DNA from: a virus
Virus record (IMG/VR): IMGVR_UViG_3300045988_094674
Coordinates: 32,001-96,000 of that record
DNA length: 64,000 nucleotides
Reading direction: 5' to 3' (one strand)
A program made the position numbers and the translations under genes. Below the pieces are notes generated by a model that saw nothing but the letters and a program-made list of their open reading frames with translations, searched no databases and was not told the DNA's origin. This document shows, piece by piece, positions 1 through 64,000 of the stretch. How positions within the stretch are numbered: position 1 is the first letter of the stretch; the number at the start of each line of letters is the position of its first letter.

Positions 1-12
1 TGGTGATGCCGT

Positions 13-225
13 ATGAACACATGTAAGAAAATATGTAACTGGTGTGGTCGTGAAATCAAGCCGATAGGTAGCGAGCAGGGAATCAGTTTTGAGTATCAAT
101 ACTCTTATGGTAGCCAACTTGATGGTTCGCTTTTGAGTTTTGATTTATGTCCTGAGTGTTCAGAACGGCTCCCAATAGTGCTCGGCGCAATGTTTGTACA
201 TAATCCCTTAAAGGACGATTTCTAA
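13..225 (+). CDS. small zinc-ribbon protein (hypothetical)
   Basis: 70-aa ORF with two Cys pairs (CNWCG ... CPEC); TAA stop. Confidence 0.4.
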   Translation: MNTCKKICNWCGREIKPIGSEQGISFEYQYSYGSQLDGSLLSFDLCPECSERLPIVLGAMFVHNPLKDDF

Positions 226-371
226 CGGCGAGTGCCGTATAAAATATAAGCCATCAATAAGCTAAACGGAGGAGAATACATAAAATGAATAGTGCATGAA
301 TTGATTCAAGACAACAAAAAAGAAACATAAATGATTATCAATGAAACAAAATTACATAAAGGAGACTTGAT

Positions 372-1475
372 ATGGCAGATAGAATTTTTAATCTTCCTCA
401 GACCCGTGGTTCTTTTGAGATGGCTGGTAAAGTTACCGGCACCCAGCGTAGTAACTTCTATAATGAGAAGGAAACTAAGAGTGGTGCTATGCGTCGTGTT
501 CTGAGCTTTGGTGTTCAGACCTCCAATGAGAATACCTTCTATGTTGATCTGGCTGGTATGCCTCGTGATAAGGTCTACTTCTTCCGCCGTGCCGATAAGG
601 ACAAGGGCATCGAGAAGGATAAGAAGGAAGTCGCTTGGAAGGATCGCATGACCTATGTTGCACCGGAAGGTTACGACATGATTGGCGTTAAGGTTGGTGT
701 TACCAAGAAGACGAATGAGTCTGGTAAGGTCGTCAATGACAACAAGACTCTGACTGATTTCGATGCAGCCAAGGAGATCTCTGAGAACCTGCATGACGGT
801 GATAACGTGTATGTCCGTGGTAACATCGAGTACAGCACTTACAACGGCAAGCACCAGATTCGCTTTGTTCCTACTCAGGTTTCTCTGAGTTCTAAGGAAA
901 TCGACTTCGATGCAGAGGGTTTTGAAGAGCTGGCTCTGTTTACCCAGACCATTGTTTACACTGGTTGCCGCAAGAGTGATGAGGGCGATGAAGTAGTTGT
1001 CGATGCAAAGATCGTGAATTACAACACTATTGAGGATGCAGAGTTCTTCATTGACTATAAGGCAAACACTCAGAATAAGGTTCTGGCCGATTCTATTCGT
1101 AAGCGTTTGAAGCCTTATACTAGTTTCGAGTGTTTTGGTCCCATCGTTAATCAGCAGAAGGTTGAGGAAGTTGAGACTGAGAATATCTGGGGTGGTCCTA
1201 ACAAGATGAAGCGTCAGAGCACTCCGGCAGTTCGTAAGCTGTATATCGAGGGTGTTAATCCTGATTCCTTTGATCCGAATCCCGGCGATAAGGATGCAGA
1301 GCCTACCTATACTGAGGACAATATCTCCGAGGCACGGGCAAAGATCGCTGCCAACGCTCAGGCTAAGAAGGACTTCGATGGCAAGGCAGCTGAGAACGAT
1401 ACTTCTTGGTGGGGTGGTTCTAACAAGTCCACTGTGACTCCTGCTGATGAGGAAGAGGATGACTGGGGAGTGTAA
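372..1475 (+). CDS. putative ssDNA-binding (OB-fold-like) protein with acidic C-terminal tail
   Basis: RBS AAAGGAGA upstream; acidic tail ADEEEDDWGV resembles SSB C-termini; adjacent to recombination-type ATPase. Confidence 0.45.
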   Translation: MADRIFNLPQTRGSFEMAGKVTGTQRSNFYNEKETKSGAMRRVLSFGVQTSNENTFYVDLAGMPRDKVYFFRRADKDKGIEKDKKEVAWKDRMTYVAPEGYDMIGVKVGVTKKTNESGKVVNDNKTLTDFDAAKEISENLHDGDNVYVRGNIEYSTYNGKHQIRFVPTQVSLSSKEIDFDAEGFEELALFTQTIVYTGCRKSDEGDEVVVDAKIVNYNTIEDAEFFIDYKANTQNKVLADSIRKRLKPYTSFECFGPIVNQQKVEEVETENIWGGPNKMKRQSTPAVRKLYIEGVNPDSFDPNPGDKDAEPTYTEDNISEARAKIAANAQAKKDFDGKAAENDTSWWGGSNKSTVTPADEEEDDWGV

Positions 1476-1485
1476 TTTTTAGTCT

Positions 1486-1506
1486 TAGCTAAGTAACACA
1501 GGATAC
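1486..1506 (+). promoter_or_regulatory. 21-nt motif TAGCTAAGTAACACAGGATAC, copy 1
   Basis: Identical 21-mer recurs at 15387-15407 and a 2-mismatch variant at 15316-15338; all lie in 5' untranslated regions. Confidence 0.5.
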
Positions 1507-1542
1507 TTATAAAAGAAAAGATTTAGAGAGGAATTTACATAT

Positions 1543-2691
1543 ATGGCTATGATTCGTAAGGCATCTGCTGTTCGTAAGAAGCTTCATATGCTGATTTATG
1601 GTGAACAGGGAACTGGTAAGTCTCGTACTGCTATGCAGCTATGCTATTTGAAGAATGCAGACGGTAAGCCGTTCCGTGTTCTGTATCTGGATACCGAGAA
1701 TGGTTCTATCGATAACTATACCGAGGAACTGGAAGCTAATGGCGTGAATCCTGACAATCTGTTGATTGTTTACACCCAGTCTCTGGCAGAAGTTCAGGAT
1801 TATATCAAGATGGTCACTAACGACGAGGACATCGAGGATGAGAATGGTGATGTCTATCTGGACGCAGATGGTAAGCCGTTCCGTGCGGATGCACTGGTTG
1901 TTGACTCCGCTTCCATTCTCAAGATGACAGCTACTCAGGGTCTCACTGCCTTCTCGCAGAAGCGTGCCAAGGTTAAGGCTGCATCTCAGGGTCTGACTGG
2001 TGACGAAAAGGCAGTTAAGATTGAGGGTGCTGGCATGGAGCTCAAGGATTTCAATACCCTGAACTTCAAGGGTCAGTCTCTGATTTTGGATCTGAATGCA
2101 TCTGGTGTAAACTACATCGTTGTTTGCCGAGAGAAGGACGAGAAGCATACTAAGGTTGTGAATGGTTCTATCGTAAGTGAGCCTACTGGTCGTAAGATTC
2201 CTGATGGGTTTGCTGGTCAGGAGTACAACGTTGATACTGAGTTCCGCCTGTATTTTCAGGATGGTCAGCAGCTCGCTTTCTTCGATAAGGATCGTACCGG
2301 TATGCATAAGGGCGGTGAGGTCGTTGAGGATCTGACCCTGCTTGAGTATCAGGATATTATCTCTAGTAGCGCAAAGAATCGGGAGAACGTCATCAAGAAC
2401 GGCTTAAACGATGCTGTTAAGACTGAGGTTAAGCTGAGTATGCGTGACCTTGGTATCGAAAACGATGAGCCGGATGATGTTCCGGCAGATAAGAGTTCCG
2501 ATAGTAAAGAGCCTTCTATGGATGACATCAAGGCAAAGCTGAATGACCTGATTGCTTCCGCTTCTCCTGTAAAGAAGAGCGCAGCGCAGAAGGCTGTTAA
2601 GGCGGCTGGCCTGTCTACTGCGTTCCGTTCTATGACTGATATTGAGGAACTGAAGAAGGTTGCCGCAATCATGGAGAAGGAACTGGCTTAA
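1543..2691 (+). CDS. AAA_24/Sak4-like RecA-fold ATPase
   Basis: Walker A IYGEQGTGKS, Walker B-like ALVVDSAS; position in replication/recombination module. Confidence 0.7.
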   Translation: MAMIRKASAVRKKLHMLIYGEQGTGKSRTAMQLCYLKNADGKPFRVLYLDTENGSIDNYTEELEANGVNPDNLLIVYTQSLAEVQDYIKMVTNDEDIEDENGDVYLDADGKPFRADALVVDSASILKMTATQGLTAFSQKRAKVKAASQGLTGDEKAVKIEGAGMELKDFNTLNFKGQSLILDLNASGVNYIVVCREKDEKHTKVVNGSIVSEPTGRKIPDGFAGQEYNVDTEFRLYFQDGQQLAFFDKDRTGMHKGGEVVEDLTLLEYQDIISSSAKNRENVIKNGLNDAVKTEVKLSMRDLGIENDEPDDVPADKSSDSKEPSMDDIKAKLNDLIASASPVKKSAAQKAVKAAGLSTAFRSMTDIEELKKVAAIMEKELA

Positions 2692-3383
2692 TGGAACTAA
2701 CCCGTAAATGCAAGATTTGCGGGAAGAACATTTTCATCGAGCGAGACCGTAGCACTTTTTTCTACGACAAGACTGGTTTTTACCACAAGGATTGTTTTGT
2801 AGAAAAAAAGAAAAATCAAAAACGCCCTTGGACAGATGATCTGCTGAGGGCATTTTTTGACAAAGTGAAGGATACTACGGACAAAAAGGTCGATGATCTT
2901 CTTTCCAAAAAGAGGGAGCAAGACCACAATCGTGAACTTGCTCATATCAAACAGGAAGAGAAAAAGATTCTTTTCGACCATATTCGAGATACATACGCCC
3001 CGGCGGTTGTTCCTGGTAGCTTCTACTCGAAACTTACGCAGTTGATTTCCGGTAATTATTACAAATATAGAGGTTCGATTCCTCCGCTAGAGCTCTACGA
3101 TATGTGGGTTCTAGCGAAACCCCGATTAGATAAGATAATTGCAGAGAAAGAAGCCAAGGGTTGCGACATGAGCCAGCGATGGAACTACGATTTGGCTGTT
3201 CTGCTGGCTCAATATCCTAGTTATCTTGAGCGAAAAGAAAGACTAGCTTCGATCCGCAGTGAAAGCGAAGATAAAACGAAGGAAAACCTGACTGAAACGG
3301 TACTGAAACGGATAAAAACAGTACCGAAGCAGAGTAAAAACGAGAACGAAATTGATATAAATGCAATTCTCGATGAAATATAA
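2691..3383 (+). CDS. hypothetical protein with N-terminal Cys/His cluster
   Basis: TAATG overlap with upstream gene; CKICGK ... HKDC. Confidence 0.5.
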   Translation: MELTRKCKICGKNIFIERDRSTFFYDKTGFYHKDCFVEKKKNQKRPWTDDLLRAFFDKVKDTTDKKVDDLLSKKREQDHNRELAHIKQEEKKILFDHIRDTYAPAVVPGSFYSKLTQLISGNYYKYRGSIPPLELYDMWVLAKPRLDKIIAEKEAKGCDMSQRWNYDLAVLLAQYPSYLERKERLASIRSESEDKTKENLTETVLKRIKTVPKQSKNENEIDINAILDEI

Positions 3384-3400
3384 AAGAGGGAGGTGGATGA

Positions 3401-4924
3401 GTGGAACTCATTTCAAATATCCCGAACGAAATTCTATTTGTTGGCGCAATTTACAAGCATCCTGACTATTTGGTCGAGTATGGGCATTATGTCAAGAGTA
3501 AGTATGATTTTGCCGATGAAGCAACAAAATTTTTCTACGATGCAGCGTTGATTATTTATGAAACTCGGACTCAAGAATTTAATAAAACGTCTGTTTTAAC
3601 GTTTATGGCTGAAGACGAGTCCAGATTGTCCCAATATAAGCGGCTGAAGGGCTGGTCAACCATTGAATACTACATGAGCCTTGCGAATGACGATGACATC
3701 AAGGGATATTTCAATATCCTGAAGAAATATTCGTTACTTCGTGAGTATCAGAGAAACGGATTTAACATTGAAGGAATCTTGAAACATCGACAGTTTGAAA
3801 TGTTTGGTGCTCAGGACATTTACAAATTGATTCGTGGCAAGGCCGATAAGATCAATACAGTTATCATTACAAACGATGATGCTGAGATTTTGAATAATGG
3901 TCTGCTGCCAATGGTCAATGAACGTCTGAGCGTTCCTGATATGGGCTTGCCGTTCCAGTATCCCATCATGAACGATTTGTTCCGAGGATTGAAGCTGGGC
4001 ACTGTGATGTTCAATGGTATGCCATCTAACGCTGGTAAGACTAGATACATGATGGCGATTGTTGCCTACGTCACATTGGTTCAAAAGCAAAAAGCTCTTT
4101 TGCTGCTGAATGAGATGGATCTTGAGTCAGTCCGGTATTGCTTATTGGTTACCGCCATCAATAATCCTGAGTTTCAAGAGTTGCATGGTCATCGCTTCCA
4201 TAAGGATGAGCGAGAAATCACCCTTGGAATGTACCGGGATGCAAATGGAAACTTCATTTTCCGAAAGCAAAACGAAGACGGAGAATACATAGAAAGCATT
4301 GATGAGTTCACCGCTCGTGTCTATGAGGAAAGCGAAGAGTACCGCAATGTGCTTGATGTTTGCCAGTGGATTGAGAACGAATCACAAGGCTTGATTATCG
4401 CAAAGGATGTTTCTGCTGATTATAGTGATAAGTCCCTGCGATTTGAAATCCAGAAAGCAGCTCTCACTCAGGGAGTTAAGTATGTGTTCTATGATACTCT
4501 AAAGAACGACATTGCATCGATTGGTGAATGGGCAGCATTCAAGGTCACGGCCACCGAGCTTGAAGAGATTGCGAAGAATCTAAAGATCTTTATCTACGGT
4601 AGTATTCAGTTGGCTGAAAATGCCCATGAGTATCTTCCTGATGAGCTGAATTCAAATAACATTGCTGAGTCAAAAATGATTAAGCATGTTGCTTGGACGA
4701 TGGTTCTATTCAAGGAGATTCCAAAAGATAAGTTCGTGAAGTATCAATACATCTCTCATGACCCTGAGTGGGGCGGTGACTGTGCCCATCGGTTGAATCC
4801 AGATAAGCGGTATTACGTTGGAAACATCGATAAAAACCGTTTTGGTGAGAAAAAGAAAATCATGTTTGAAGTGAATTTGAACCAGAATATCTGGAAAGAG
4901 GTCGGTGTCTGCACCAGAAAGTAA
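3401..4924 (+). CDS. DnaB-like replicative helicase
   Basis: 507 aa; GTG start after GGGAGGTGG; Walker A GMPSNAGKTRYMM; followed by primase. Confidence 0.65.
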   Translation: MELISNIPNEILFVGAIYKHPDYLVEYGHYVKSKYDFADEATKFFYDAALIIYETRTQEFNKTSVLTFMAEDESRLSQYKRLKGWSTIEYYMSLANDDDIKGYFNILKKYSLLREYQRNGFNIEGILKHRQFEMFGAQDIYKLIRGKADKINTVIITNDDAEILNNGLLPMVNERLSVPDMGLPFQYPIMNDLFRGLKLGTVMFNGMPSNAGKTRYMMAIVAYVTLVQKQKALLLLNEMDLESVRYCLLVTAINNPEFQELHGHRFHKDEREITLGMYRDANGNFIFRKQNEDGEYIESIDEFTARVYEESEEYRNVLDVCQWIENESQGLIIAKDVSADYSDKSLRFEIQKAALTQGVKYVFYDTLKNDIASIGEWAAFKVTATELEEIAKNLKIFIYGSIQLAENAHEYLPDELNSNNIAESKMIKHVAWTMVLFKEIPKDKFVKYQYISHDPEWGGDCAHRLNPDKRYYVGNIDKNRFGEKKKIMFEVNLNQNIWKEVGVCTRK

Positions 4925-4933
4925 GGAACTACA

Positions 4934-5956
4934 ATGGTAAATATCGCAGATCTGAAAAATTACATTCTTGAAGAACAGCAGATTGAGCCGATTTTGGAAG
5001 AGCTTGGTTGCCATCACATTAGTCATAAGACTGGTTATTACCAGTGCGCAAATCCAGATGGTGACAATAGAACGGCACTCTGCGTTTACGAGAATGAAAA
5101 TCTTACTGCGGTAGATTACACACGAGATATTGCCAATGGAAAGACCAGTTGTGATTTGATTTCTGTCGTCCAGTTCTTTCTGGAACTGTCTTTCCCAAAA
5201 GCCATTAAGCAAATCTGCGAATGGGTTGGTCTTGACTACTATCACAACTTCGAGGAAGACCTTCCTAAAAGTATGCTGATTCTAAAAGAACTCATTGCCA
5301 TGCAAAATGAAGGTGAAGAACACGAGGATGACCGTCCGATAGTCCCCATCTCCGAAGCTATCCTCGGTTATTATAAACCTTATGTGAACCAGATTTTTGC
5401 TGACGATGGGATATCTTATGAGACGCAGCAGGAGTTTGAGATTGGCTTTGATGAACTGACAAATAGAATCACGATTCCAATCAGAGATGAAATTGGCACT
5501 CTGGTTGGTGTAAAGGGAAGATATTTTGGTAAGCCTCCTGAAGGCGAATTAAAGTATCTATATCTTGAGCCGTGTGCCAGAAACCGTATTCTGTATGGTC
5601 TGTATAAGACAGAGCCATACATTAAGAATGAAGGTCTGGTATATGTTGGTGAAGCCGAAAAGTCTGTCATGCAGATGTGGAACATGGATGTTTACAACTG
5701 TGTGGCGACTGGCGGTAAGAAGGTTTCACAGAATCAAATTGAAATTTTAACACGTCTTTGCGTTGATATTTGTTTTGTATTTGATAAAGACGTTCAGCTT
5801 AGTGAGCTTATGGTTCTCGCCAATCGATTTGTCGATGGCGTAAGTGTGTATGCTGTAGTAGATGATAAAGGGATTCTGGATGAAAAGGAAGCCCCGACTG
5901 ACAATCCTGAAAAATTTAAAGCATTGATTGAGAATTATGTTAGGAGAATTAAATGA
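4934..5956 (+). CDS. DNA primase (Toprim type)
   Basis: N-terminal Cys/His cluster; Toprim-like VYVGEAEKSVM and FVFDKD. Confidence 0.65.
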   Translation: MVNIADLKNYILEEQQIEPILEELGCHHISHKTGYYQCANPDGDNRTALCVYENENLTAVDYTRDIANGKTSCDLISVVQFFLELSFPKAIKQICEWVGLDYYHNFEEDLPKSMLILKELIAMQNEGEEHEDDRPIVPISEAILGYYKPYVNQIFADDGISYETQQEFEIGFDELTNRITIPIRDEIGTLVGVKGRYFGKPPEGELKYLYLEPCARNRILYGLYKTEPYIKNEGLVYVGEAEKSVMQMWNMDVYNCVATGGKKVSQNQIEILTRLCVDICFVFDKDVQLSELMVLANRFVDGVSVYAVVDDKGILDEKEAPTDNPEKFKALIENYVRRIK

Positions 5957-7695
5957 ATGTAAAACTCTGGAAGGGGAGTAGGAACGACCTATCAGACCCG
6001 ATTGGAACGATTATGGAGAACAGAGGGGTTGAGGATTATAAGACCTACATGAACCTAGATGATTCTTGTTTGAATTCTCCGTGGGAACTGGACAACATGG
6101 AAGATGCTGTCCGGCTGTTGAACAAACATATTTGGAATAAGTCTATTATCTCTATCCTTGTAGACTGTGATGTGGATGGATTCACAAGTGCTTCAATGAT
6201 GTTTCAGTATTTGAAGACGATTGGTTATTTTGGAAAAATTAATGTTCTGCATCATAGTGGCAAGGAACATGGACTCTCTAAAGAAATTGAGATCCCACCT
6301 GAAACTACCTTGCTGATTATTCCTGATGCTGGTAGTAACGATGTTGAGCAGTGCAAGGAACTTCGTGATAAGGGCATCGATATTCTGATCCTTGACCATC
6401 ACATCTGCGACAGAGAGAATCCTTACGCAGTAATCGTCAATAACCAGAATGGTACATATCCTAATAAGGAACTGTCTGGTGCTGGCGTTGTGTATAAGTT
6501 CCTTCAGGCTGTTGATGAATATAATTGGACTGATGTTGCAGATAGGTATCTTGATCTAGTGGCTATCGGAAATATCGGTGATGTTATGGATATGCACTCG
6601 CATGAGACAAAGCGCCTTTGCACAAAAGGTCTGGCGCGAATTGTAAATCCGATGATTTGTGCTTTGGTTGAGGCGAATAGCTTCAACATCAAGGGTGATC
6701 CGACTATCAATGATGTTCAGTTCTATATCGTTCCGATGATGAACGCACTGATTCGCGTTGGCTCATCCGAGCAAAAGAAGCGGATGTTCCGTGCGATGGT
6801 TGGAGAGGAACAGACCTTCCAGTATACTCCGACTCGTGGCAAGAATGCCGGTGTTACGATTGATGAGAATCTGGCGCAGCATGTAGCTCGTGAGTGCTCC
6901 TCTTGTAAGTATCAGCAAAACAAGACAAAGGACAAGGCTGTCGCAGAGCTTCAAAACTGGATTTCTAAGTATGGAGCGGACAGAAGTAAAGTTTTGTTTT
7001 GTAATTCCACTGGCATTCTGGACAGTAATTTGACTGGCGTTGTAGCAATCAAGCTGGCTGAAATATATGGTAAACCTTGCGTACTACTTCGAGAGATGGC
7101 CTGCCCTGAAGAACCAGACGAGAATCAAGAGTATTTTGGTGGTTCAATGAGAAATCCTGACGGTTCTCCGATTGAAAGTTTAAAGGAGTTCTTGATGAGT
7201 ACCGGAGATTTCGAGTCTGTTCTTGGTCATGACAACGCTGCTGGCGTGAAAATTAAGAAAGAAAACGTGCCAAAGGCGATTGCGGATTGTGACGAACTGC
7301 TTAAAGATGTCACTATGAGTAAGGCGATTGTAGTTGATTTTGATTTTAACTACAACAAATTGACTGTTGCATTGCCGAAGATCATGTACGAGATGCATAA
7401 AGTCTGGGCTCAGGGTATTTCCGAGCCGTATTTCTACATTAAAAACATTCCGCTGATTCATAGTGGATGTGCTCCGATGGGCAAGAACGGCAATATGTGG
7501 AAATATTCTGACGAAGAAAAAGGCATTGATTTTGTGTGCTTTGCAGATAATGGCCGGATGATTGACTGGATCAACAATGACTTCTATGGTGGTCAGGAAG
7601 AGAAATATATCAATGCTGTATGCCGGTTATCTTTAAATCAGTACGGAAACAAGGTGACTCCGCAAGCACAGATTGTTGATTTTGAGGTGATTTGA
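5953..7695 (+). CDS. RecJ-like DHH-family ssDNA exonuclease
   Basis: DCDVDGFTS, PDAGSND, ILDHHI (DHH) motifs. Confidence 0.7.
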   Translation: MNVKLWKGSRNDLSDPIGTIMENRGVEDYKTYMNLDDSCLNSPWELDNMEDAVRLLNKHIWNKSIISILVDCDVDGFTSASMMFQYLKTIGYFGKINVLHHSGKEHGLSKEIEIPPETTLLIIPDAGSNDVEQCKELRDKGIDILILDHHICDRENPYAVIVNNQNGTYPNKELSGAGVVYKFLQAVDEYNWTDVADRYLDLVAIGNIGDVMDMHSHETKRLCTKGLARIVNPMICALVEANSFNIKGDPTINDVQFYIVPMMNALIRVGSSEQKKRMFRAMVGEEQTFQYTPTRGKNAGVTIDENLAQHVARECSSCKYQQNKTKDKAVAELQNWISKYGADRSKVLFCNSTGILDSNLTGVVAIKLAEIYGKPCVLLREMACPEEPDENQEYFGGSMRNPDGSPIESLKEFLMSTGDFESVLGHDNAAGVKIKKENVPKAIADCDELLKDVTMSKAIVVDFDFNYNKLTVALPKIMYEMHKVWAQGISEPYFYIKNIPLIHSGCAPMGKNGNMWKYSDEEKGIDFVCFADNGRMIDWINNDFYGGQEEKYINAVCRLSLNQYGNKVTPQAQIVDFEVI

Positions 7696-7696
7696 T

Positions 7697-8044
7697 ATGG
7701 GAAATTGGAAACGTGCTATCGCCATCGACTTTGATGGAACTCTCTGTGAGAATAATTATCCTGATATCGGTGAGCCAAACTGGAATGTAATTTATCAAGC
7801 AATTCAGGAACAGAAGCACGGTGCTGGTCTGATTCTCTGGACTTGCCGTGAAGGAAAGCTTTTGTATGATGCAATGGAGGCTTGCTTTGATTGGGGCATT
7901 CAGTTTGATGCAATCAATGAGAGTCTTCCTGAGTGGAAAGAACATTTTGGCACTGCTCCTAGAAAGGTTGGGGCTGATGAATATTGGGATGATAAGGCTA
8001 AGGTTGTAAAAAATGGAGAGCTGATTGACAATGCTGATGCCTGA
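7697..8044 (+). CDS. HAD-superfamily phosphatase-like protein
   Basis: N-terminal IAIDFDGTL (DxDGT) motif. Confidence 0.45.
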   Translation: MGNWKRAIAIDFDGTLCENNYPDIGEPNWNVIYQAIQEQKHGAGLILWTCREGKLLYDAMEACFDWGIQFDAINESLPEWKEHFGTAPRKVGADEYWDDKAKVVKNGELIDNADA

Positions 8045-8216
8045 ACAGTTTGAAGCAGACGTTAAAGAATTTATCGCAGAATGCCAAAGCCATCCAGTGA
8101 TAGATTTATCAAAAGATGATCCATGCGAAGGATGTCGCTTTGAGGACTTTTGCGATAGGTTTTATCCGGGCGATGGTAGCACATGGCATTGGCGAGTTTA
8201 TGAGAGGGGTGAATGA
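8025..8216 (+). CDS. hypothetical protein
   Basis: 63-aa ORF packed between neighbours; TGA stop abuts next ATG. Confidence 0.4.
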   Translation: MTMLMPEQFEADVKEFIAECQSHPVIDLSKDDPCEGCRFEDFCDRFYPGDGSTWHWRVYERGE

Positions 8217-8978
8217 ATGGTTTACATTACAGGCGATATTCATGGTGATTACAATCGGTTTTTAGAATTGGAAAAGTTTTGCCATAAACACAATCTTGGA
8301 ATGAATGACTGGATTGTCTGCCTTGGCGATGTCGGTTTGAACTACTACGGCAAGGATGACCCTCGTGAATGGAGTATCAAGACTATCGCCGCAGATATTC
8401 CTGCAAATCTGTTTTGTATTTATGGCAACCACGAGCGCCGCCCGTCTCGTAAGGATGGTTATAGGACAAAGGAAATCAGTGGAGATATTTGTGGTAAGGT
8501 GTGGTATGACTCACATTATCAAAATCAGTATTTCGCTATTGATGGTGAGGTCTATCAGATTCTTGCTGACAGGGAAGTGTTAAACTGTCTTGTTTGCGGC
8601 GGAGCATATTCTGTGGACAAGTATTATCGGCTAGAGTGGGGATATAATTGGTGGCTGAACGAACAGCCGAATGATAAGACTAAGAAAAAGATCTGGAATA
8701 TTACACATGACCCTCAAATCGATGATATTGATGTTATGCTCACGCATACCTGTCCATTCCGGTTCATTCCAACTGAATTGTTTATTGGTGGTATTGATCA
8801 AAGCACAGTAGACCAGTCAACTGAAATATTCTTTGATAATATATACGAATGCTATCCTAACGATTGTAAACCATTCTGGTACTTCGGCCACTTCCATGGT
8901 AACAAGTACGCTGACGACTATGTGATGCTTTTTGATGACATTATTAAGTTTGGAGATAAGAGGAAAACGGATGATTAA
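8217..8978 (+). CDS. calcineurin-like metallophosphoesterase
   Basis: GDIHGD ... GDVGLNY ... GNHE motif series. Confidence 0.75.
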   Translation: MVYITGDIHGDYNRFLELEKFCHKHNLGMNDWIVCLGDVGLNYYGKDDPREWSIKTIAADIPANLFCIYGNHERRPSRKDGYRTKEISGDICGKVWYDSHYQNQYFAIDGEVYQILADREVLNCLVCGGAYSVDKYYRLEWGYNWWLNEQPNDKTKKKIWNITHDPQIDDIDVMLTHTCPFRFIPTELFIGGIDQSTVDQSTEIFFDNIYECYPNDCKPFWYFGHFHGNKYADDYVMLFDDIIKFGDKRKTDD

Positions 8979-9294
8979 AGATAAAAATTTACGAGTGCTT
9001 GATTATATTGATGGCAAGGAAATCCTCATTCAGATGGGTGAGGAAGGTTCTGAGTTGTCGAAAGCTGCGATAAAGTTTTATCGTGCAATCGATATGAAGA
9101 ACCCAACGCCTGTAAGCATTAACGAGGCTTATGAAAACCTCGTAGAAGAATTCGGTGATGTGCTGAACTGTATCTACGCATACTATGATGATGACGAGGA
9201 TTGCATCTTGGCGTTTACATCGAAAGCGAATGAGATTGCTAACGAGAAGCGCAAGCGTTGGATTAAGCGCTTGAAGGAACGTAATCAGTTTTAA
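8971..9294 (+). CDS. MazG-like nucleotide pyrophosphohydrolase
   Basis: ATG at 8971 overlaps upstream stop; MGEEGSELSKA and EEFGDVLNCI helices. Confidence 0.55.
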   Translation: MIKDKNLRVLDYIDGKEILIQMGEEGSELSKAAIKFYRAIDMKNPTPVSINEAYENLVEEFGDVLNCIYAYYDDDEDCILAFTSKANEIANEKRKRWIKRLKERNQF

Positions 9295-9311
9295 TGGCGG
9301 AAGGAGAATAG

Positions 9312-12300: not shown

Positions 12301-12659
12301 GGGAATTTGAAACGCTTTCAATGTTCTTGACTAGCAATCCCATTAAGGATGCTTGCACCTGTATTGATGCTGGTCTTGATACTGTAGAGGATGGCGGTGA
12401 GGCAACTGCTATTTGTGTCATCGTAGACATCCAAAAAAAGAAGGATAAACGTGGCAACCAGTTTGCATACTTACATGTTTACACGACAGGTGGTATTGTT
12501 GAAATGATTTGTTGGGCATATCAGTATGCACGATATTCAAGTCTAATTTCAAAGGGCAGCGATCTTGCAATCCTTTGCAAGAGAAAAGAAAATTCGTACA
12601 TTGTTGAGAAGATGAAGCCTTACAAACAGTGGCTGCATGATAGAGAGATAAAGCAATGA
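9312..12659 (+). CDS. dnaE: DNA polymerase III alpha subunit
   Basis: 1115 aa; PHP domain start NLHVHTAQGSLLDS; FDFD catalytic region; HhH and OB regions. Confidence 0.9.
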   Translation: MSDNFVNLHVHTAQGSLLDSILTVKELVNFAKENGQKAIAVTDHGKMHSFVDQVKACKEAGIKPIIGCEVYEVDNQSEKADTKDYKQPRYHLVLLAKNEIGLKNLFKVVSNACVDGMYKKPRTSLNIIEQNEWGKGIICLTACQVGRMSRLLVDGNETEAWQLWNKLKWIFDDVFMEIQSHDTPDQAEANAKIAAFIKKYNLPYTITTDAHMLSKEDVDAHSVFVEIGEGREVGESYVDCYLQTENDVLKTLSNQFDEDFIREGCSMSVKIADMIDDIDIGLGQPNQMPEVKIEGKFDSHFDYLRHLVYATFNKKFGWMSEVEQQTRRNRIEMELDVLKYVDYIDYFIMLYMLCKKADERKIPRGYSRGSGANCLCLFMENVTQIDSVRWDLDFSRFANKGRKSLADFDFDVSKRRRKELIAIAEELFGKENVAPIATFNSLSTKVAIKDIGKVLNEDPESPYYMQIPYELRNEVAKLIPTVKTLDDLGEEVEKEVLLKDILGKSEQLSNVYDKFPLWFKYVMRLEGLPKSMGRHAAGTLITPKPVIEYCPLCMDREGNQMCQLEMHNAMDDLSLVKMDFLGLENLDIIDDTLKMAGLTWEDVDINHLDLSDKAVYDTVYKSGNTIGIFQMESAEARKMCVEAKCDNAEDIIVVNAANRPGTKDSFPTYCSNKLHPETIKLLHPDIKQLFAKTQYILLYQEQALAVFRYAGFPETEVDNARRAIGKKKKDVMASLEVQFRDGLHKKGWNDYQISEMWALILKQASYSFNRGHAVAYGLLSYLTAYLKTHYTEYFMAACMITKEDDSGKMGVFINECDRLHIRVLPPSVNKSDMEFKADAEKHTILFGLKAIKGMGESVASGVIADRPYSGLADFVQRANGGKIGTSNVVKLIKAGAIPTKDKRKILITFANMVFENEYKEKSFHEMASLPKISILKDEYGIDTDSIKDKPTRLALYNKVRRERWEADTWNRKKEKDKKRNAFMQAFAEKYMQDEHMWEFETLSMFLTSNPIKDACTCIDAGLDTVEDGGEATAICVIVDIQKKKDKRGNQFAYLHVYTTGGIVEMICWAYQYARYSSLISKGSDLAILCKRKENSYIVEKMKPYKQWLHDREIKQ

Positions 12660-12901
12660 ATGATGTTTTATATAATGGTGTTTTATATACTATTGACGGA
12701 TTGGTTCTGTGTGAATTTCCTGAGTTTAAAATTGATTGTTACAAAGATAAAACTGTAATTAAGATACATTGTACGAATTGTTGCGTCGTTAGAAAAGTTC
12801 AGAAGTGGAAGTTTGACTGCGCAGAACAATGCGAGCTTACCACAAAATGGTTTTATTGCAGAGTGTGCGGAGGACTGACAGAATTTAGATTAGGTACATA
12901 A
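12656..12901 (+). CDS. small zinc-ribbon protein (hypothetical)
   Basis: ATGA overlap with dnaE; CTNCC ... CRVCG. Confidence 0.4.
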   Translation: MNDVLYNGVLYTIDGLVLCEFPEFKIDCYKDKTVIKIHCTNCCVVRKVQKWKFDCAEQCELTTKWFYCRVCGGLTEFRLGT

Positions 12902-12916
12902 TAAGAGGGCTATAAA

Positions 12917-15272: not shown

Positions 15273-15315
15273 GTAGCTATAAGAAGTCTCTATCCCAGAG
15301 GCTTAAAATTTTCCC

Positions 15316-15338: not shown

Positions 15339-15341
15339 AAT

Positions 15342-60689: not shown

Positions 60690-60705
60690 TTCCTACATTA
60701 TATAA
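60690..60705 (-). promoter_or_regulatory. 16-nt repeat TTATATAATGTAGGAA (minus strand), copy 2
   Basis: Identical to 60538-60553. Confidence 0.4.
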
Positions 60706-60790
60706 ATATAACAATAGGCGATATGGCTCTTAGGGTTTCCCAGCACTCTAGGGGCTATTTTATTTTTACATGGTGCCGCATCCTATATTT

Positions 60791-63238
60791 TTATACGCAA
60801 CAAATATAAGAGGGCATATTAACTTTACCCGCACCATTTTTGAGCTTTCCGCTCATCTGCATTACAGACAACACGCCGGAAATGGCGGCTGTCAGAGTTG
60901 GTAATGCGCCAGCAAATTTTACAGCACTATCTGCACCGTCAACAAAAACAGTAGCAAGGCTTATAAAGAACTTCGGGATATCAGACTTCATCAAGTCCGT
61001 ACTAAACTTCTGGAATGCAGAATCAAGCTGATTAAGCTTCGCCTGCAAGGAGTCCATGTACGTCTGGTTCTCACGCATTGCGCTGCCACTAGAATTGAGT
61101 GCCTGCTTCATAGCGTCTTCAGCAACACTAAAATTATTCAGCAGGGCAGATGTACTCTGACCTCCTCTCTTTCCAGAGATCAGCTCAGTAATATTTGCCT
61201 GTGTTGTGTCAGACAGATCTTTCCAAACCTCAGAAAGTTCCTTCATAATCTGATAGGTTGATTTGAAGGTATTATTATCCTTCATAATATCAACACCAGC
61301 AAGTTGCTTCAACTCAGATCGAAGTTCGGACACAGAATCTGCCATCCCATCTGTTGCGATACCGGCATTTTCTGCATCTGTTTTTGAAGCACGAAGGTAC
61401 ATACTCAAAGTTTTTAGGTAAGTGCCACTCGTATCTGCGTCCTGAAGTACACCGTTTACAGCAGACGCCAAACTAAGCGTCTCCTGATATGTATTTCCGG
61501 CGGCAGACATCGCAGCGGAACTTTTCTGCATGATAATTCCAAGGTCGTTCATACTGACTGGTTCAGTATTAGCGATTTGGTTCATGCAGTCCAGAAGACG
61601 CTCTGCATCATCAGCAACCAACCCAAAACCTTGCATTGCAGAAATCAGGTAAGAAGAAGCAGTTGTTGCATTATCTATCTGGTCTCCAACATTAGCCATA
61701 AGAGCAGACACACGAGCAAGCTCTTCAGAGTCTTTGTCCGTATATCCAAGTCGCTTCTAATCGGCAGTGCTACTTACAAGATCAGAAATATTAGCACCAA
61801 GATTACGAGCGTTTGTTGCAGTTCTATCGAGATATTCGTTCATCTCGTCGTCAGTCATTTTACTGACTTTTTTAAGCTCTGTTACAGCCGTATCAAGTTC
61901 CAGAACATTATTATAAACCTCTCGCAGACCTTGTTTGACCATAGCCACGCCAGCCATAGCAATAGCTGTCTGGAAGTGCTCCTTAAACAGACGAGACAGT
62001 TTTTGACCAAGAGTTTCTGTAGTGGCCCCACATCTGCTGGCCTCAACCTCAAGATTTGATAGTCTTGCACTAAGATCAGTAACATTGCCTTCACAGCCAG
62101 CAGCAGAAGCTTTTATTCCGTTTAAACTATCAATTAGCCAAGAATATTTACTTTTATTTGCAATAGAGTCTTCTAACTTCGTTGCACGTTCATAAACACT
62201 CTTAAACTTCGTCATATCAACATTGGCTTGATTTATATCTCTAAAATCAAATCCAAGTTCTTTTAAATGTTGACTTGTAGAATCAATAGTTGTATCAAGA
62301 GTCTTGCATTTTTTATCAAAGTCTTGAATTGCTTTCCCTGGTGTAGTGTTCTCAATAGAAGCAAGCTGATCTCGTAACTCTTTTAACTTTCCAGAAGTTT
62401 TTCCAGTTCCATCTTCTCCATATAAATATTTTTTGATATTATCATTTTTATAGTTGGAGTTATTCTTAGAATAGTTTTCAAGAGACTGAATCTTTTTTTG
62501 ATATTTTTCATACTCGGATTCTTGAGATATGAGAGTCTTTTTTAAATCATCTGCAATTTCTTGATTTTGTTTTTTTAGTTCTTTTGCAGCCGAATCAGCA
62601 CCTTTTGCAGTATTCCTGTCAGCATTGAATTTTCCGGTTTTTTCGATATCCTCAAGCTTTAACTTCTGAGTTTCCGTAATTACATCTTTTGTTTTTGTCT
62701 TGAGTTTATCCATCTCATCGTTGATTGCGCTCAATCTAGTCTGTACCGCTTTCAACTCAGATGATTTGTTTCCATTAGCAATTAACAATGCTTCATCCGC
62801 TTTTAACTTTGCTTGACGATTTGCAAGGCTGAAAAGGCGAGAAATATCACTTTTTGAAGTATCTTGCGGTTTTGCAGAACCAGACTTTCCGGTATCAACC
62901 TTAACTGTCTGCTTTGCTGCAGATTGCATAGCTTTTTTAAGCTGTGCGGTTACTTTACTCTGGTCAACCTTAACATCAAGTGTAACCTTTGGAGTTCTTA
63001 ATTTTCCACTCTTGACCACCTTGTCAAGTGCGTCATTTATATTGCGGATTGTATCGTTTTGATTCACTCCGAAAGCAATTTTTACTGGTTTTTCTTTATA
63101 ATACTCTTTAACAGAATTAAATTGCTTGTCTAACTCTGCTTTATTTGCGTCAATAACAACCTTAACCTTGATAGCTGTTACAGAGGAAGTATCAGCACTA
63201 CTTGCGGTGTTTGTATTATCCGCCATACCGTTGGTCAC
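60791..63238 (-). CDS. tape-measure protein, proximal part with TP901-type core, read through an in-frame TAG
   Basis: ORFs 61757-63238 and 60791-61711 share one frame joined by TAG 61757-61759; core ANVGDQIDNATTASSYLISAMQGFGL...; start at 63238 (GTG) or 63226 (ATG). Confidence 0.75.
60816..60826. repeat. right copy of 11-bp inverted repeat (ATATTAACTTT)
   Basis: Reverse complement of 58554-58564; lies where the upstream TMP ORF stops looking protein-like. Confidence 0.5.
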
Positions 63239-63356
63239 CTCTCTTTTCCATTTTCAACATTCCTTTCAAAACAAAAAAGAGAAGCGGCCAGCTCCTTAAA
63301 GCCAGCCCTCCTCTCATTTAATTTTAATCCAAATAAATTCTCATAAAAGATGGCTT

Positions 63357-63914
63357 TTACAATCCATGTAAAGCCGTCTTAACAATCATTGCCGCCTCGA
63401 CTTGCGCAGGAGCAATAAACGGACGTGCAGGGCGATATTCTTTCTGCCCACCAGACCGAAGATAATAACTCAAATCCATCCAAAGACCATTCTCAATCCA
63501 GTTCGCAAACATAGTTCCACCAACAGCCGCATTCTCACGTTCATCAAATAAAACATTCGCTCCACCATTCTCATTCCAAACAAGTGGAGAATTACCATGA
63601 TGGTATTCCCTGTATAACAAAGTATCTGATGCTCTTTGAGAATCAAAATTCTTTCTACCAAGAAAATAAGACGGTTGCGGTTTTGCGATATCTTTCACAA
63701 TCATCGTAACAGTGTTTCCATCACGAGTTACACTACTCACAATATTACTTGCATCTTCGATTCCAGCAGAACGGGCGGATTGTGACTGAATATTTTTCTT
63801 TGCACTTGCCTGAAGCACAGTTTCTATTTGCGGAGCTACATCCTGCATAATCTGCTCCACACCATCTGCCACATCACTCAATAGGTCATCAAAATTTGTG
63901 TATGACTGTTTCAT
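63357..63914 (-). CDS. virion-module protein upstream of tape measure
   Basis: 185-aa ORF; TAA stop. Confidence 0.45.
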   Translation of the reverse strand: MKQSYTNFDDLLSDVADGVEQIMQDVAPQIETVLQASAKKNIQSQSARSAGIEDASNIVSSVTRDGNTVTMIVKDIAKPQPSYFLGRKNFDSQRASDTLLYREYHHGNSPLVWNENGGANVLFDERENAAVGGTMFANWIENGLWMDLSYYLRSGGQKEYRPARPFIAPAQVEAAMIVKTALHGL

Positions 63915-64000
63915 TCACTCCACCTCAAATCTCAAACCGATCCTTTGCAGACTGAATCTTTGTCGTATCCTTTTTGATGTAATACTTGTTGGTCACATCC

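What the first reader, a model, noticed from the sequence alone, without database searches (positions are those of the whole stretch)
1..64000. TAG codons are confined to the virion/lysis arm; the replication arm, integrase and moron operon are TAG-free
All + strand genes (1-38.9 kb: replication, nucleotide metabolism, xis, int, int-adjacent operon) are intact under the standard code and end in TAA or TGA. All in-frame TAGs lie in minus-strand tail, baseplate, tape-measure and possibly lysis-module genes. This early/late split matches the proposed use of recoding as a timing lock: late proteins can only be completed once a suppressor is expressed. No suppressor tRNA, release factor or aminoacyl-tRNA synthetase is visible in these 64 kb, so the switch component must be elsewhere in the genome or come from the host.
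Basis: inference. Interest (0 to 1): 0.75.

Follow-up and report, generated by a model that had tools for sequence, protein, structure and literature searches.

The report
Gut phage reads TAG as tryptophan
This is half of a large temperate phage of the gut bacterium Faecalibacterium whose tail genes contain a few in-frame TAG "stop" codons. These are most likely read as tryptophan by a phage-encoded suppressor tRNA, a known kind of trick (stop-codon recoding of late genes) but with an unusual amino acid and an unusually sparse, strain-variable form.

Summary
The 48 + strand genes (replication, nucleotide metabolism, xis, int) have 178 TGG and no in-frame TAG. The 19 − strand late genes have 90 TGG and 7 in-frame TAG, in four tail genes (Fisher p = 6e-4). 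None of the 67 genes ends in TAG, and the window holds no tRNA.

The window is the excised form of a ~124–135 kb SPβ-like temperate phage of Faecalibacterium that integrates into the host tmRNA gene.

Five of the 7 TAGs align with Trp in homologues. Across relatives, TAG replaces TGG at 17 sites; TGA does so at only 2.

Relatives carry a tRNA-Trp-derived CUA tRNA in a variable tRNA array at the head of the late operon, about 17 kb beyond the window. In-frame TAGs occur in 32 of 38 genomes with this tRNA and 1 of 37 without it (p = 6e-14). Early genes stay TAG-free even in genomes that have the tRNA.

So recoding is real, the suppressor lies elsewhere in the genome, and the codon reads as Trp, not the usual Gln. 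The window's own tRNA array could not be retrieved.

The "timing lock" is plausible but unproven. Holin and endolysin are TAG-free, TAG use is sparse and polymorphic, and the pattern may simply reflect where a suppressor is available.

The parts
1..38946 (+). Early and lysogeny arm. Sak4-like protein, DnaB, primase, RecJ, Pol III alpha-like polymerase (9312-12659), ExoV/Dda helicase, ligase, thymidylate synthase, NrdD/NrdG, dUTPase, FolD, HTH_17 excisionase-like gene, integrase, AcrVA2-like gene. No in-frame TAG and no TAG terminator.
   Evidence: PHROG hits; Pfam labels on identical genes; codon counts; no TAG-joined ORFs.
35638..35658 (+). attP core, GTTCGACTCCCATCGCCTCCA, identical to the 3' end of the Faecalibacterium tmRNA gene.
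   Evidence: window against lysogen contig L404; tmRNA at L402:9456-9803 directly upstream of int.
35856..37001 (+). Tyrosine integrase (381 aa from the ATG). TAG-free.
   Evidence: phrog_1 at 1.7e-67. The exact protein is found next to smpB-ssrA in Faecalibacterium contigs.
60791..63238 (-). Tail tape measure protein, 815 codons, one in-frame TAG.
   Evidence: phrog_4211 at 1.2e-68, a single stretch over residues 400-796 that spans codon 494.
61757..61759 (-). In-frame TAG, TMP codon 494. Aligns with Trp in a 50%-identical TMP (STAEWSRLGYT against STAD#KRLGYT).
   Evidence: TAG in all 5 related contigs that cover the site.
46679..49624 (-). Tal-like baseplate/tail-tip protein (981 codons, DUF5048 in the C-terminal part), two in-frame TAGs. 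Standard-code gene callers split it into 77 + 162 + 719 aa.
   Evidence: Homologues P0077-P0082 cover 100% of the N-terminal 443 aa as single ORFs.
49391..49393 (-). In-frame TAG, codon 78. The column is Trp in all 13 homologues that span it.
   Evidence: TAG in 10 of 10 related contigs.
48872..48874 (-). In-frame TAG, codon 251. Trp in the 71%-identical homologue P0074; the region is deleted in more distant homologues.
   Evidence: TAG in 10 of 10 related contigs.
42250..43509 (-). DUF6273 / Hoc-like protein (419 codons, G+C 51%), three in-frame TAGs. Probably a receptor-binding or decoration module.
   Evidence: phrog_10993 at 2.4e-120; phrog_9958 over residues 58-215 spans two of the TAGs. 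An intact 419-aa DUF6273 ORF exists in L014.
43369..43371 (-). In-frame TAG, codon 47. TGG (Trp) in L014, L018, L403 and L411.
43234..43236 (-). In-frame TAG, codon 92. CAG (Gln) in L014, L403 and L411. This is one of the sites that does not align with Trp.
42946..42948 (-). In-frame TAG, codon 188. TAG in most strains; TCC (Ser) in the divergent L014 copy.
41492..42025 (-). 177-codon late protein (weak tail-fibre PHROG hits), one in-frame TAG.
   Evidence: phrog_3811 over residues 36-168 and phrog_1348 over 31-170 both span codon 122.
41660..41662 (-). In-frame TAG, codon 122. Aligns with Trp in a homologous segment of P0079 (ECTEW-EYEDLAALAMAIGTYVQPF against ECVE#TYENLAALALEIGVYVKPF).
   Evidence: Read by eye (P0079, columns about 690-760). 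TAG in 4 of 4 related contigs.
39233..40213 (-). Endolysin (39233-39880) and holin (39893-40213). Both are TAG-free.
   Evidence: phrog_894 and phrog_6918; codon counts.
38950..38998 (.). Hairpin-like sequence between the two convergent arms (ggggtac...N...gatcaatacccc followed by a T run). Probably a shared terminator.
   Evidence: Read directly from the sequence. Not tested with a tool.

Best explanation
What the element is. The window is about half of the excised, circular form of a ~124–135 kb SPβ-like temperate siphophage of Faecalibacterium. The phage integrates into the 3' end of the host tmRNA gene (ssrA).

What the TAGs are. In this phage lineage TAG is no longer used as a terminator. 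In strains that carry a phage-encoded amber suppressor, TAG serves as a rare alternative tryptophan codon in late (virion) genes.

What the suppressor is. It is a tRNA with anticodon CUA, discriminator G73 and the acceptor stem and anticodon arm of the phage's own tRNA-Trp(CCA). It most likely arose from that tRNA by a C35-to-U change. It sits in a hypervariable tRNA array on the late strand, downstream of a YonO-like phage RNA polymerase gene and immediately upstream of the terminase and structural genes. That is about 17–18 kb beyond window position 64000.

What follows. Full-length tape measure, Tal-like, DUF6273 and 177-aa proteins can be made only when this tRNA is present and charged. 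Charging is presumably by the host TrpRS. Early, replication and lysogeny genes must be translated before the tRNA is available, or without it, and are kept TAG-free.

Shown: the in-frame TAGs; their alignment with Trp; the early/late split; the tRNA in relatives and its co-occurrence with TAG.

Inferred: that this exact genome carries the tRNA; that it is charged with Trp; when it is expressed.
For: 1. TAGs are sense codons. Profiles and uninterrupted homologues span them. They are conserved as TAG in independent assemblies. In the related tail-arm and adjacent loci mapped onto the window's late genes, every in-frame stop found is TAG, never TAA or TGA.

2. TAG reads as Trp.
- Five of the 7 window sites align with W.
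- With curated coding ORFs as queries, TAG aligns with W at 17 distinct sites (108 cells) and with Q at 4 sites (7 cells).
- The equally likely G-to-A change TGG to TGA is seen at only 2 sites (3 cells).
- CAA to TAA, at 10 sites (18 cells), gives the background rate of nonsense changes. Fisher p = 6e-4.

3. The suppressor.
- tRNAs with anticodon CUA occur in array B of relatives and in array A of a sister clade.
- For 16 of 17 variants, the most similar of 328 other phage tRNAs is tRNA-Trp(CCA).
- The family folds as a cloverleaf; 16 of 21 pairs show compensatory changes, and G1-U72, G73 and the loop CU-CUA-AA are invariant.

4. Co-occurrence. At least one TAG at 8 polymorphic Trp sites is found in 32 of 38 CUA-carrying genomes and 1 of 37 without (p = 5.9e-14). 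A second collection replicates this: 13 of 20 against 0 of 12 (p = 4.5e-4).

5. Early/late split.

6. TAG terminators are almost absent clade-wide.

7. Host and lifestyle.
Against: - The window's own array B could not be retrieved, so presence of the suppressor in this genome is inferred. The inference rests on its 7 TAGs and on its two nearest relatives.
- Two of the 7 window TAGs do not align with Trp: Gln at 43236 and Ser at 42948. One strain has TAG at a Gln position. A GAG/TAG polymorphism occurs in the TMP.
- Counts of cells are not phylogenetically independent.
- Six of 38 suppressor-carrying genomes have no TAG at the surveyed sites, and one genome without a detected suppressor has one.
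- From my own knowledge, the anticodon is a major identity element for bacterial TrpRS, so charging of a CUA tRNA with Trp may be inefficient. No charging or proteomic data exist here.
- No release factor or aminoacyl-tRNA synthetase gene was seen.
Confidence: 0.78

Rival explanations
1. Adaptive timing or lysogeny lock. On this view TAGs in late genes were selected because they block completion of virion proteins until the suppressor is expressed. That would prevent leaky late-gene expression in lysogens and set the order of events after induction.
For: - The early/late split is strict, and the integrase, excisionase and replication genes are TAG-free.
- The TAGs sit in essential, low-copy structural proteins: TMP, the Tal-like protein and, in relatives, terminase.
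- The phage is truly temperate.
- The same pattern was proposed as a lysis/lysogeny switch for TAG-recoded prophages (Borges et al. preprint).
Against: - Holin and endolysin have no TAG.
- Only about 7% of late Trp codons are TAG. The sites differ between closely related strains, and about half of the relatives have neither the tRNA nor any TAG. The lock is therefore dispensable.
- The suppressor lies within the late gene block rather than in an early operon, so it would be made together with its targets.
- No expression data exist.
Confidence: 0.35
2. Passive tolerance (drift). On this view TAG was freed as a terminator in the lineage. Once a tRNA-Trp(CUA) is present, TGG-to-TAG transitions are nearly neutral, but only in genes translated while that tRNA is abundant. 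They therefore accumulate in late genes and are purged elsewhere, and they are purged everywhere when the tRNA is lost. The split would be a by-product, not a device.
For: - TAG density is low and sites turn over fast.
- TAG presence is tightly coupled to tRNA presence, with both states common in one phage population.
- TAG terminators are depleted even in suppressor-less genomes.
- There is no concentration in lysis genes.
Against: - It does not explain why suppressors are retained in about half of the genomes, in several divergent variants and at two different array positions. That suggests some benefit.
- Several TAGs are fixed in all sampled strains that carry this tail module.
Confidence: 0.4
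3. TAG is read as glutamine (genetic code 15), as in crAss-like phages, Lak phages and phAss-1.
For: - Code 15 is the only TAG reassignment reported for phages in Borges et al. and for phAss-1.
- One window site (43236) and one strain-specific site align with Gln.
- From my own knowledge, E. coli su7 tRNA-Trp(CUA) is mischarged with Gln.
Against: - W is aligned at 17 sites and Q at 4, and the Q sites are mostly singletons at the same level as CAA-to-TAA nonsense changes.
- An invariant Trp column lies at 49393.
- The tRNA resembles tRNA-Trp, not the phage's tRNA-Gln(UUG).
- From my own knowledge, most Firmicutes lack GlnRS.
Confidence: 0.08
4. The TAGs are genuine stops. On this view they are nonsense mutations in decaying prophages, assembly errors, or boundaries between separately translated small genes that happen to be in frame.
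For: - Standard-code gene callers split the genes into 77 + 162 + 719 aa and 493 + 306 aa.
- Start codons lie 10–15 codons after some of the TAGs.
Against: - The TAGs fall inside conserved domains at Trp columns.
- They are identical in many independent assemblies.
- Only TAG, never TGA or TAA, reaches appreciable frequency.
- They associate strongly with a CUA tRNA.
- Excised circular forms and lysogens are both abundant in metagenomes.
Confidence: 0.04

Closest known systems
Stop-codon-recoded gut phages and prophages (crAss-like, Lak, Garnet, Topaz and others; Borges et al., bioRxiv 10.1101/2021.08.26.457843; Peters et al. 2022, PMC9523058)
   Same: - In-frame TAG in structural and late genes, with early genes and the integrase compatible with the standard code.
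- A phage-encoded suppressor tRNA(CUA).
- A standard-code host.
- Depletion of the reassigned codon as a terminator.
- Some members are temperate.
   Different: - Those papers report only TAG to Gln and TGA to Trp. Here TAG aligns with Trp and the tRNA derives from tRNA-Trp.
- Recoding here is very sparse: 7 codons in 25 kb, with little gene fragmentation.
- Lysis genes are not enriched in TAG.
- The suppressor is present in only about half of otherwise closely related genomes.
Theta-ribozyme-associated phage tRNA-Sup with predicted Trp isotype (Kienbeck et al. 2024, PMC10879173)
   Same: That paper reports that 19.4% of 180 examined CUA suppressor tRNAs of gut phages score as the Trp isotype, and calls this the "rarely reported code 32".
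   Different: - In the passages I read, that was a tRNA isotype prediction without codon-level evidence.
- No ribozyme family matched near the arrays here in the Rfam scans.
- The data here add Trp-aligned TAG sites and tRNA/TAG co-variation.
NCBI genetic code 32, Balanophoraceae plastid code (TAG = Trp). The code table is from my own knowledge; it is named.
   Same: The same codon-to-amino-acid reassignment.
   Different: That is a plastid genome with a complete reassignment. Here it is a virus using the code only for part of its genes, in a standard-code host.
phAss-1 / proposed Phassvirus (Babkin et al. 2023, PMC10607447)
   Same: A human-gut phage of about 136 kb with in-frame TAGs in TMP, terminase, portal and fibre genes, tRNA-Sup-CTA genes and no dedicated aminoacyl-tRNA synthetase.
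   Different: - TAG reads as Gln, and 28% of ORFs are interrupted, including some DNA-processing genes.
- It has 36 tRNAs.
- No close DNA similarity to the first 25 kb of the window was found in the phage collection.
Bacillus phage SPβ (SPbeta-like phages)
   Same: - Genome of about 130 kb and temperate lifestyle.
- Pfam families YonD_N, YonB, YomW and YomU_Tube.
- A YonO-like two-barrel RNA polymerase (PF05183).
- A Pol III alpha-like replicase.
   Different: - From my own knowledge, SPβ uses the standard code and a serine recombinase. Here there is a tyrosine integrase targeting ssrA, and TAG recoding.
- The nearest isolated phage by polymerase is Clostridium phage Amboise, at 47% identity.
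E. coli su7 (supU) amber suppressor, a tRNA-Trp with anticodon CUA (my own knowledge)
   Same: An amber suppressor made from tRNA-Trp by a single anticodon change.
   Different: - su7 is largely mischarged with Gln by GlnRS.
- Here the comparative data point to Trp.
- The host group generally lacks GlnRS (my own knowledge, not tested).

Membership tests
Stop-codon-recoded (alternative-code) phages | In-frame copies of one stop codon at conserved positions of essential genes | tested here: met
   There are 7 TAGs in 4 late genes. Profiles and uninterrupted homologues span them.
Stop-codon-recoded (alternative-code) phages | The reassigned codon is not used as a terminator | tested here: met
   None of 67 window genes ends in TAG. 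TAG terminators are nearly absent clade-wide: 1 of 634 late ORFs and 5 of 224 early ORFs in genomes without the suppressor.
Stop-codon-recoded (alternative-code) phages | A phage-encoded suppressor tRNA matching the codon | tested here: inconclusive
   None is present in the window. One is present in 38 of 75 relatives, including the two closest. This genome's own tRNA array could not be retrieved.
Stop-codon-recoded (alternative-code) phages | The host uses the standard code | tested here: inconclusive
   The host is Faecalibacterium. Of 21 flanking host genes, 1 ends in TAG and the rest in TAA or TGA. Standard code for this genus is established knowledge and was not tested here.
Stop-codon-recoded (alternative-code) phages | Recoded codons enriched in late genes and depleted in early and lysogeny genes | tested here: met
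   In-window p = 6e-4. At site level, 0 of 73 early against 15 of 142 late Trp sites carry TAG (p = 0.003).
Stop-codon-recoded (alternative-code) phages | Marked gene fragmentation and low coding density under the standard code | tested here: not met
   Late-arm coverage by ORFs of 100 aa or more is 0.90 under the standard code and 0.94 with TAG read-through. Only 4 genes are split.
Genetic code 15 (TAG = Gln) | TAG aligns with Gln in homologues | tested here: not met
   W is aligned at 17 sites and Q at 4. An invariant W column lies at codon 78 of the Tal-like protein.
Genetic code 15 (TAG = Gln) | The suppressor tRNA has Gln identity | tested here: not met
   The nearest other tRNA is tRNA-Trp(CCA) for 16 of 17 variants. 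G73 is present. The phage's tRNA-Gln(UUG) is not among the top matches.
Code-32-like decoding (TAG = Trp) | TAG aligns with Trp in homologues and varies with TGG between strains | tested here: met
Code-32-like decoding (TAG = Trp) | The CUA tRNA is charged with Trp, and Trp is found in the protein at TAG positions | not testable with these tools
   This needs aminoacylation assays or LC-MS/MS of virions or induced lysogens.
SPβ-like phages | Yon/Yom structural proteins, a YonO-like RNA polymerase, a Pol III alpha-like replicase and a temperate genome of about 130 kb | tested here: met
   Pfam YonD_N, YonB, YomW and YomU_Tube; PF05183; PHP/DNA_pol3_alpha; contig lengths of 124–139 kb; lysogens.
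Pyrrolysine decoding of UAG (ARAGORN labels the tRNA "Pyl") | pylS/pylBCD genes, and a tRNA-Pyl architecture rather than a standard cloverleaf | tested here: not met
   The tRNA is a standard cloverleaf close to tRNA-Trp. No Pyl genes appear among the annotated ORFs. The label reflects the anticodon only.

The most novel reading that the evidence does not exclude
This may be the first codon-level case of UAG = Trp (code-32-like) decoding in a virus. It would have been produced by a single anticodon change in a phage-borne tRNA-Trp.

It appears to be caught in mid-evolution. Within one abundant population of Faecalibacterium phages, the suppressor and the TAG codons are gained and lost together. 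TAG has already been abandoned as a terminator, and only late genes are allowed to use it.

In that reading the TAGs act both as a late-gene lock and as a compatibility tag. Recombining tail and head modules would work only in genomes that keep the tRNA.
Probability: 0.45. Interest if true: 0.78.

Novelty: new variant of a known kind. Interest (0 to 1): 0.62.

Why it matters
Stop-codon recoding of late genes in gut phages is established, but it has been described as TAG to Gln or TGA to Trp. This case matters for four reasons.

1. A TAG-to-Trp version in a very common temperate phage of Faecalibacterium, a keystone gut commensal, widens the set of codes that annotation pipelines must consider. 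Code 15 would mistranslate these proteins. Standard-code callers split the tape measure and baseplate genes.

2. Suppressor-positive and suppressor-negative genomes of the same phage coexist, and TAG codons track the tRNA. This population is therefore a natural experiment on how a codon reassignment starts and is lost.

3. The case can separate "adaptive lock" from "passive tolerance", provided a lysogen can be induced.

4. ARAGORN and the Rfam tRNA model at its gathering score both miss one common suppressor variant. Surveys of "recoded phages without suppressor tRNAs" may therefore overcount.

Tried and rejected
1. Counting ORF merges under read-through of each stop as a recoding score. Rejected: TGA and TAA "merges" were dominated by off-frame open frames.

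2. A first tblastn tally using all six-frame ORFs as queries. It gave Q as the top partner of TAG. Rejected as an artefact of non-coding frames; restricting to curated coding ORFs reversed the result.

3. A first classification of relatives by ARAGORN alone. It suggested many genomes with TAGs but no suppressor. This was wrong: the pattern scan and flank mapping showed a 75-nt variant inside array B that ARAGORN and Rfam miss. Reclassification gave the clean association.

4. Apparent TAGs at 55756 and 55702 in L016 and L004. Probably local misalignment in the 1745-aa protein, because those genes are called uninterrupted. They were not used.

5. Retrieving this strain's own tRNA array. The homologue search returned only a 97% cluster representative. 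IMG/VR and the metagenome collection hold no copy more than 97.4% identical over the adjacent region.

6. Searching for the prophage in species-representative genomes with the integrase. Only distant actinobacterial integrases were found. The host was instead identified from flanking genes in metagenome contigs.

7. An IMG/VR search with the 452-aa tail protein. It found 1 locus. This tail module is rare there, so the tail-arm TAGs could be compared only in about 20 metagenome contigs.

8. Other tRNA arrays. Array A (Leu, Leu, Pro, Gln, Leu, Gly, Met/Ile) never holds a CUA tRNA in the close clade. No further arrays lie between arrays A and B.

9. Pyrrolysine, sequencing error and pseudogene explanations. 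These were considered and rejected; see the rival explanations.

Full report
**1. What the window is**

PHROG searches place replication and nucleotide-metabolism genes on the + strand from 1 to about 38.9 kb. They include:
- a Sak4-like protein, DnaB, primase and RecJ;
- a 1115-aa Pol III alpha-like polymerase, an ExoV/Dda helicase and a ligase;
- thymidylate synthase, NrdD/NrdG, dUTPase and FolD;
- a tyrosine integrase.

The − strand from about 39 to 64 kb holds a tape measure protein, tail and baseplate proteins, a tail fibre, a DUF6273 protein, a holin and an endolysin.

Contigs that carry identical proteins extend the map. Beyond position 64000 lie structural genes with the Pfam families YonD_N, YonB, YomW and YomU_Tube, and further on a YonO-like two-barrel RNA polymerase (PF05183). 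This is therefore an SPβ-like phage. Related contigs are 124–139 kb long and very common in human gut data. The coordinates of one scaffold imply a circularly permuted genome of about 124 kb.

In most metagenome contigs the integrase is flanked by DnaX-YbaB-RecR-SmpB and a tmRNA gene. RecR, YbaB and SmpB are identical to proteins named "MULTISPECIES ... [Faecalibacterium]". The window shares a 21-nt core with the tmRNA 3' end. In the window the integrase is preceded by phage genes (FolD and an HTH_17 excisionase-like gene), as in locus L408, so the window is the excised form. Host DNA is 56–60% G+C and the phage about 41%.

**2. Checking the observation**

Under TAG read-through, four − strand genes become continuous:
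- the tape measure protein (TAG at 61759);
- a 981-codon Tal-like protein (49393 and 48874);
- the DUF6273 protein (43371, 43236 and 42948);
- a 177-codon protein (41662).

Other TAGs in open frames lie upstream of start codons or in non-coding frames. I checked these against the gene calls on near-identical contigs.

On the + strand no ORFs are joined through TAG.

| Arm | Genes | Codons | TGG | In-frame TAG | Terminators |
|---|---|---|---|---|---|
| Early (+) | 48 | 11,530 | 178 | 0 | 31 TAA, 17 TGA |
| Late (−) | 19 | 7,545 | 90 | 7 | 14 TAA, 5 TGA |

Fisher p = 5.9e-4 for TAG against TGG between the arms. Off-frame TAG is equally frequent in both arms. The window contains no tRNA or other Rfam family.

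The holin and endolysin are TAG-free. Only four genes are affected. The gain in coding coverage is small.

**3. Are the TAGs translated, and as what?**

The phrog_4211 tape-measure profile matches residues 400-796 as one stretch across codon 494. A 50%-identical tape measure protein from a related contig is uninterrupted and has Trp at that position.

For the Tal-like protein, homologues at 46–48% identity cover the whole N-terminal 443 residues as single ORFs. Codon 78 aligns with a Trp in all 13 homologues that span it. Codon 251 aligns with Trp in a 71%-identical homologue. A homologous segment in one of these proteins also places Trp at the TAG of the 177-codon protein.

In the DUF6273 gene, other strains have TGG at codon 47, CAG at codon 92 and TCC at codon 188. 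So 5 of the 7 sites are Trp positions.

All 7 sites are TAG in nearly all independent assemblies. In the related tail-arm and adjacent loci mapped onto the window's late genes, the only in-frame stops are TAG.

I also used curated coding ORFs as tblastn queries against about 400 related loci:

| Change seen in a relative | Distinct sites | Cells |
|---|---|---|
| W aligned to TAG | 17 | 108 |
| Q aligned to TAG | 4 | 7 |
| W aligned to TGA | 2 | 3 |
| Q aligned to TAA | 10 | 18 |

TGG to TAG and TGG to TGA are both G-to-A transitions, so mutation alone would produce them at similar rates. Selection therefore removes TGA but tolerates TAG at Trp codons. Q-to-TAG occurs at the same level as ordinary nonsense background (Fisher p = 6e-4). 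This argues for Trp and against Gln.

**4. The suppressor**

The genome has two tRNA arrays outside the window.

Array A lies 3–4.5 kb before window position 1. It holds Leu, Leu, Pro, Gln, Leu, Gly and Met/Ile tRNAs and is conserved. It never holds a CUA tRNA in this clade.

Array B lies about 17–18 kb beyond position 64000 on the late strand. It sits downstream of the YonO-like polymerase, an Ant-like protein and a protease, and immediately upstream of the terminase and structural genes. It is extremely variable. In many relatives it holds a tRNA with anticodon CUA. In others the array instead holds a tRNA-Trp(CCA), though not always in the same order within the array.

The properties of the CUA tRNAs point to a Trp origin:
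- They share the acceptor stem, the G1-U72 pair, discriminator G73 and the anticodon arm of the Trp tRNA.
- For 16 of 17 variants the closest of 328 other phage tRNAs is tRNA-Trp(CCA).
- The family folds as a cloverleaf with compensatory changes in 16 of 21 pairs.

ARAGORN and Rfam miss one common 75-nt variant.

After reclassification, 38 of 75 relatives carry the CUA tRNA, 10 carry Trp(CCA) and 27 carry neither. At 8 polymorphic Trp sites in the adjacent structural genes, at least one TAG occurs in 32 of 38 CUA-positive genomes and 1 of 37 CUA-negative genomes (Fisher p = 5.9e-14). A second collection gave 13 of 20 against 0 of 12 (p = 4.5e-4).

No further tRNA arrays lie between arrays A and B. 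A sister clade (RlaP 58% identical) carries the same kind of suppressor, but in array A.

The window's own array B could not be read. Its two nearest relatives over the adjacent 10.5 kb, at 97.4% and 96.1% identity, both carry the suppressor.

**5. The early/late split at population level**

Mapping the window's early genes (372-11400) onto 80 relatives covered about 238,000 codon cells. The only in-frame TAG is one CAG-to-TAG singleton, alongside occasional TAA and TGA changes, mostly singletons or alignment artefacts near gene ends.

At Trp positions:

| Gene class | Trp sites with TAG in some genome | Counts in CUA-positive genomes |
|---|---|---|
| Early | 0 of 73 | 657 TGG / 0 TAG |
| Late | 15 of 142 | 1620 TGG / 44 TAG |

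The site-level comparison gives p = 0.003. The cell-level comparison gives p = 5.6e-7, but the cells are not independent.

TAG as a terminator is almost absent in the whole clade, including suppressor-less genomes: 1 of 634 late ORFs and 5 of 224 early ORFs.

**6. Mechanism**

The best-supported reading has four parts:
1. The lineage has given up TAG as a terminator.
2. A phage tRNA-Trp acquired a CUA anticodon.
3. Where that tRNA is present, TAG works as a minor Trp codon.
4. This happens only in genes translated when the tRNA is available, that is, in the late block that contains the tRNA array.

In this strain the tape measure and baseplate proteins cannot be completed without suppression, so virion assembly depends on the tRNA.

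Whether this dependence was selected as a lock or is a by-product of where suppression is available cannot be decided from sequence.

Against a dedicated lysis or lysogeny lock:
- the holin and endolysin are TAG-free;
- about 7% of late Trp codons are TAG;
- the sites are polymorphic;
- half of the relatives do without the system;
- the suppressor is co-located with its targets rather than in an early operon.

For some benefit:
- the suppressor persists in several divergent variants and at two array positions;
- several TAGs are fixed in this tail module.

Charging by host TrpRS and the timing of expression are both inferred.

**7. Comparison with known systems**

Borges et al. describe the same architecture: late genes recoded, an integrase compatible with the standard code, and a suppressor tRNA. 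They state that only TAG to Gln and TGA to Trp were observed in phages. phAss-1 is a gut phage of similar size using TAG to Gln, with far denser recoding. Kienbeck et al. report that 19.4% of ribozyme-associated phage CUA tRNAs score as the Trp isotype and call this the "rarely reported code 32". A full-text search for phrases describing TAG or UAG as tryptophan found nothing.

The system here fails the tests for code 15 and meets the testable ones for a code-32-like reading. It lacks the heavy gene fragmentation typical of recoded phages. I therefore file it as a new variant of a known kind.

**8. Verdict**

- The added value is Trp rather than Gln decoding, the Faecalibacterium/ssrA/SPβ-like identity, and the strain-level co-variation of the tRNA with TAG codons.
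- The main gap is that this exact genome's tRNA array and any protein-level evidence are missing.

Noticed in passing
window 42250-43530 (also L017, L403, L411): Many independent assemblies end at about 43.4–43.5 kb, the start of the DUF6273 gene, which has 51% G+C against about 40% around it. Some relatives carry an opposite-strand 366–441 aa gene there, overlapping the end of the tail fibre gene. This looks like a swapped or invertible receptor-binding cassette.
   Followed up: no
L023:11394-11735; L055:4806-5161: A group I intron (78 bits) lies in the structural region next to a DUF723/HNH ORF. A weaker intron-like match (34 bits, below the family threshold) falls where the terminase large subunit is split into 122-aa and 439-aa ORFs.
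   Followed up: partly
L024:3207-3281 (array B): A common 75-nt CUA suppressor variant with a short D arm and an atypical T loop is missed by ARAGORN and by the Rfam tRNA model at its gathering score. Surveys that report recoded phages without suppressor tRNAs may be affected.
   Followed up: yes
L007:1666-5356 and L009:197-949 (3–10 kb before window position 1): Next to tRNA array A lie a PemK-family toxin, an RlaP nucleotidyltransferase and a 737-aa protein with kinase, phosphoesterase and T4 Rnl1-type ligase domains. This looks like a tRNA repair kit of the kind phages use against anticodon nucleases.
   Followed up: no
L023:2926-3002 and equivalents: Array B usually ends with an initiator-like tRNA (anticodon CAT, C1 opposite A72). 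The two arrays together supply about 15 tRNAs, mostly for A/U-ending codons. That fits a 41% G+C phage in a 56–60% G+C host.
   Followed up: no
window 37516-38577: The gene after the integrase carries the Pfam family AcrVA2-like (PF26125) on identical copies in other contigs.
   Followed up: no
L342-L384 (sister clade, RlaP 58% identical): Nearly all members (33 loci) carry the Trp-like CUA suppressor in array A, ahead of the early arm, instead of array B. Whether their early genes then contain TAG was not examined systematically.
   Followed up: partly
window 43236 and codon 30 of the DUF6273 gene in L403; TMP codon about 201 (L024:19518): Some TAGs alternate with CAG (Gln) or GAG (Glu) rather than TGG, one of them at high frequency. 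Either these are real Q/E-to-W replacements in variable proteins, or decoding is not purely Trp.
   Followed up: partly
window 58580-59002 (+ strand): A + strand ORF of about 140 aa (called as 137 aa on near-identical contigs) sits inside the − strand late arm, between the tape-measure region and the 1745-aa protein. It has no family match. The neighbouring cargo differs between strains (DUF3800, aspartic-protease-like genes).
   Followed up: no
L008 (ERZ28639119 scaffold_8, 283,565 bp) and L404 (303,000 bp): Very long scaffolds carry the phage. L404 is a lysogen with Faecalibacterium flanks. L008 was not checked and could be a second integration context or a misassembly.
   Followed up: no
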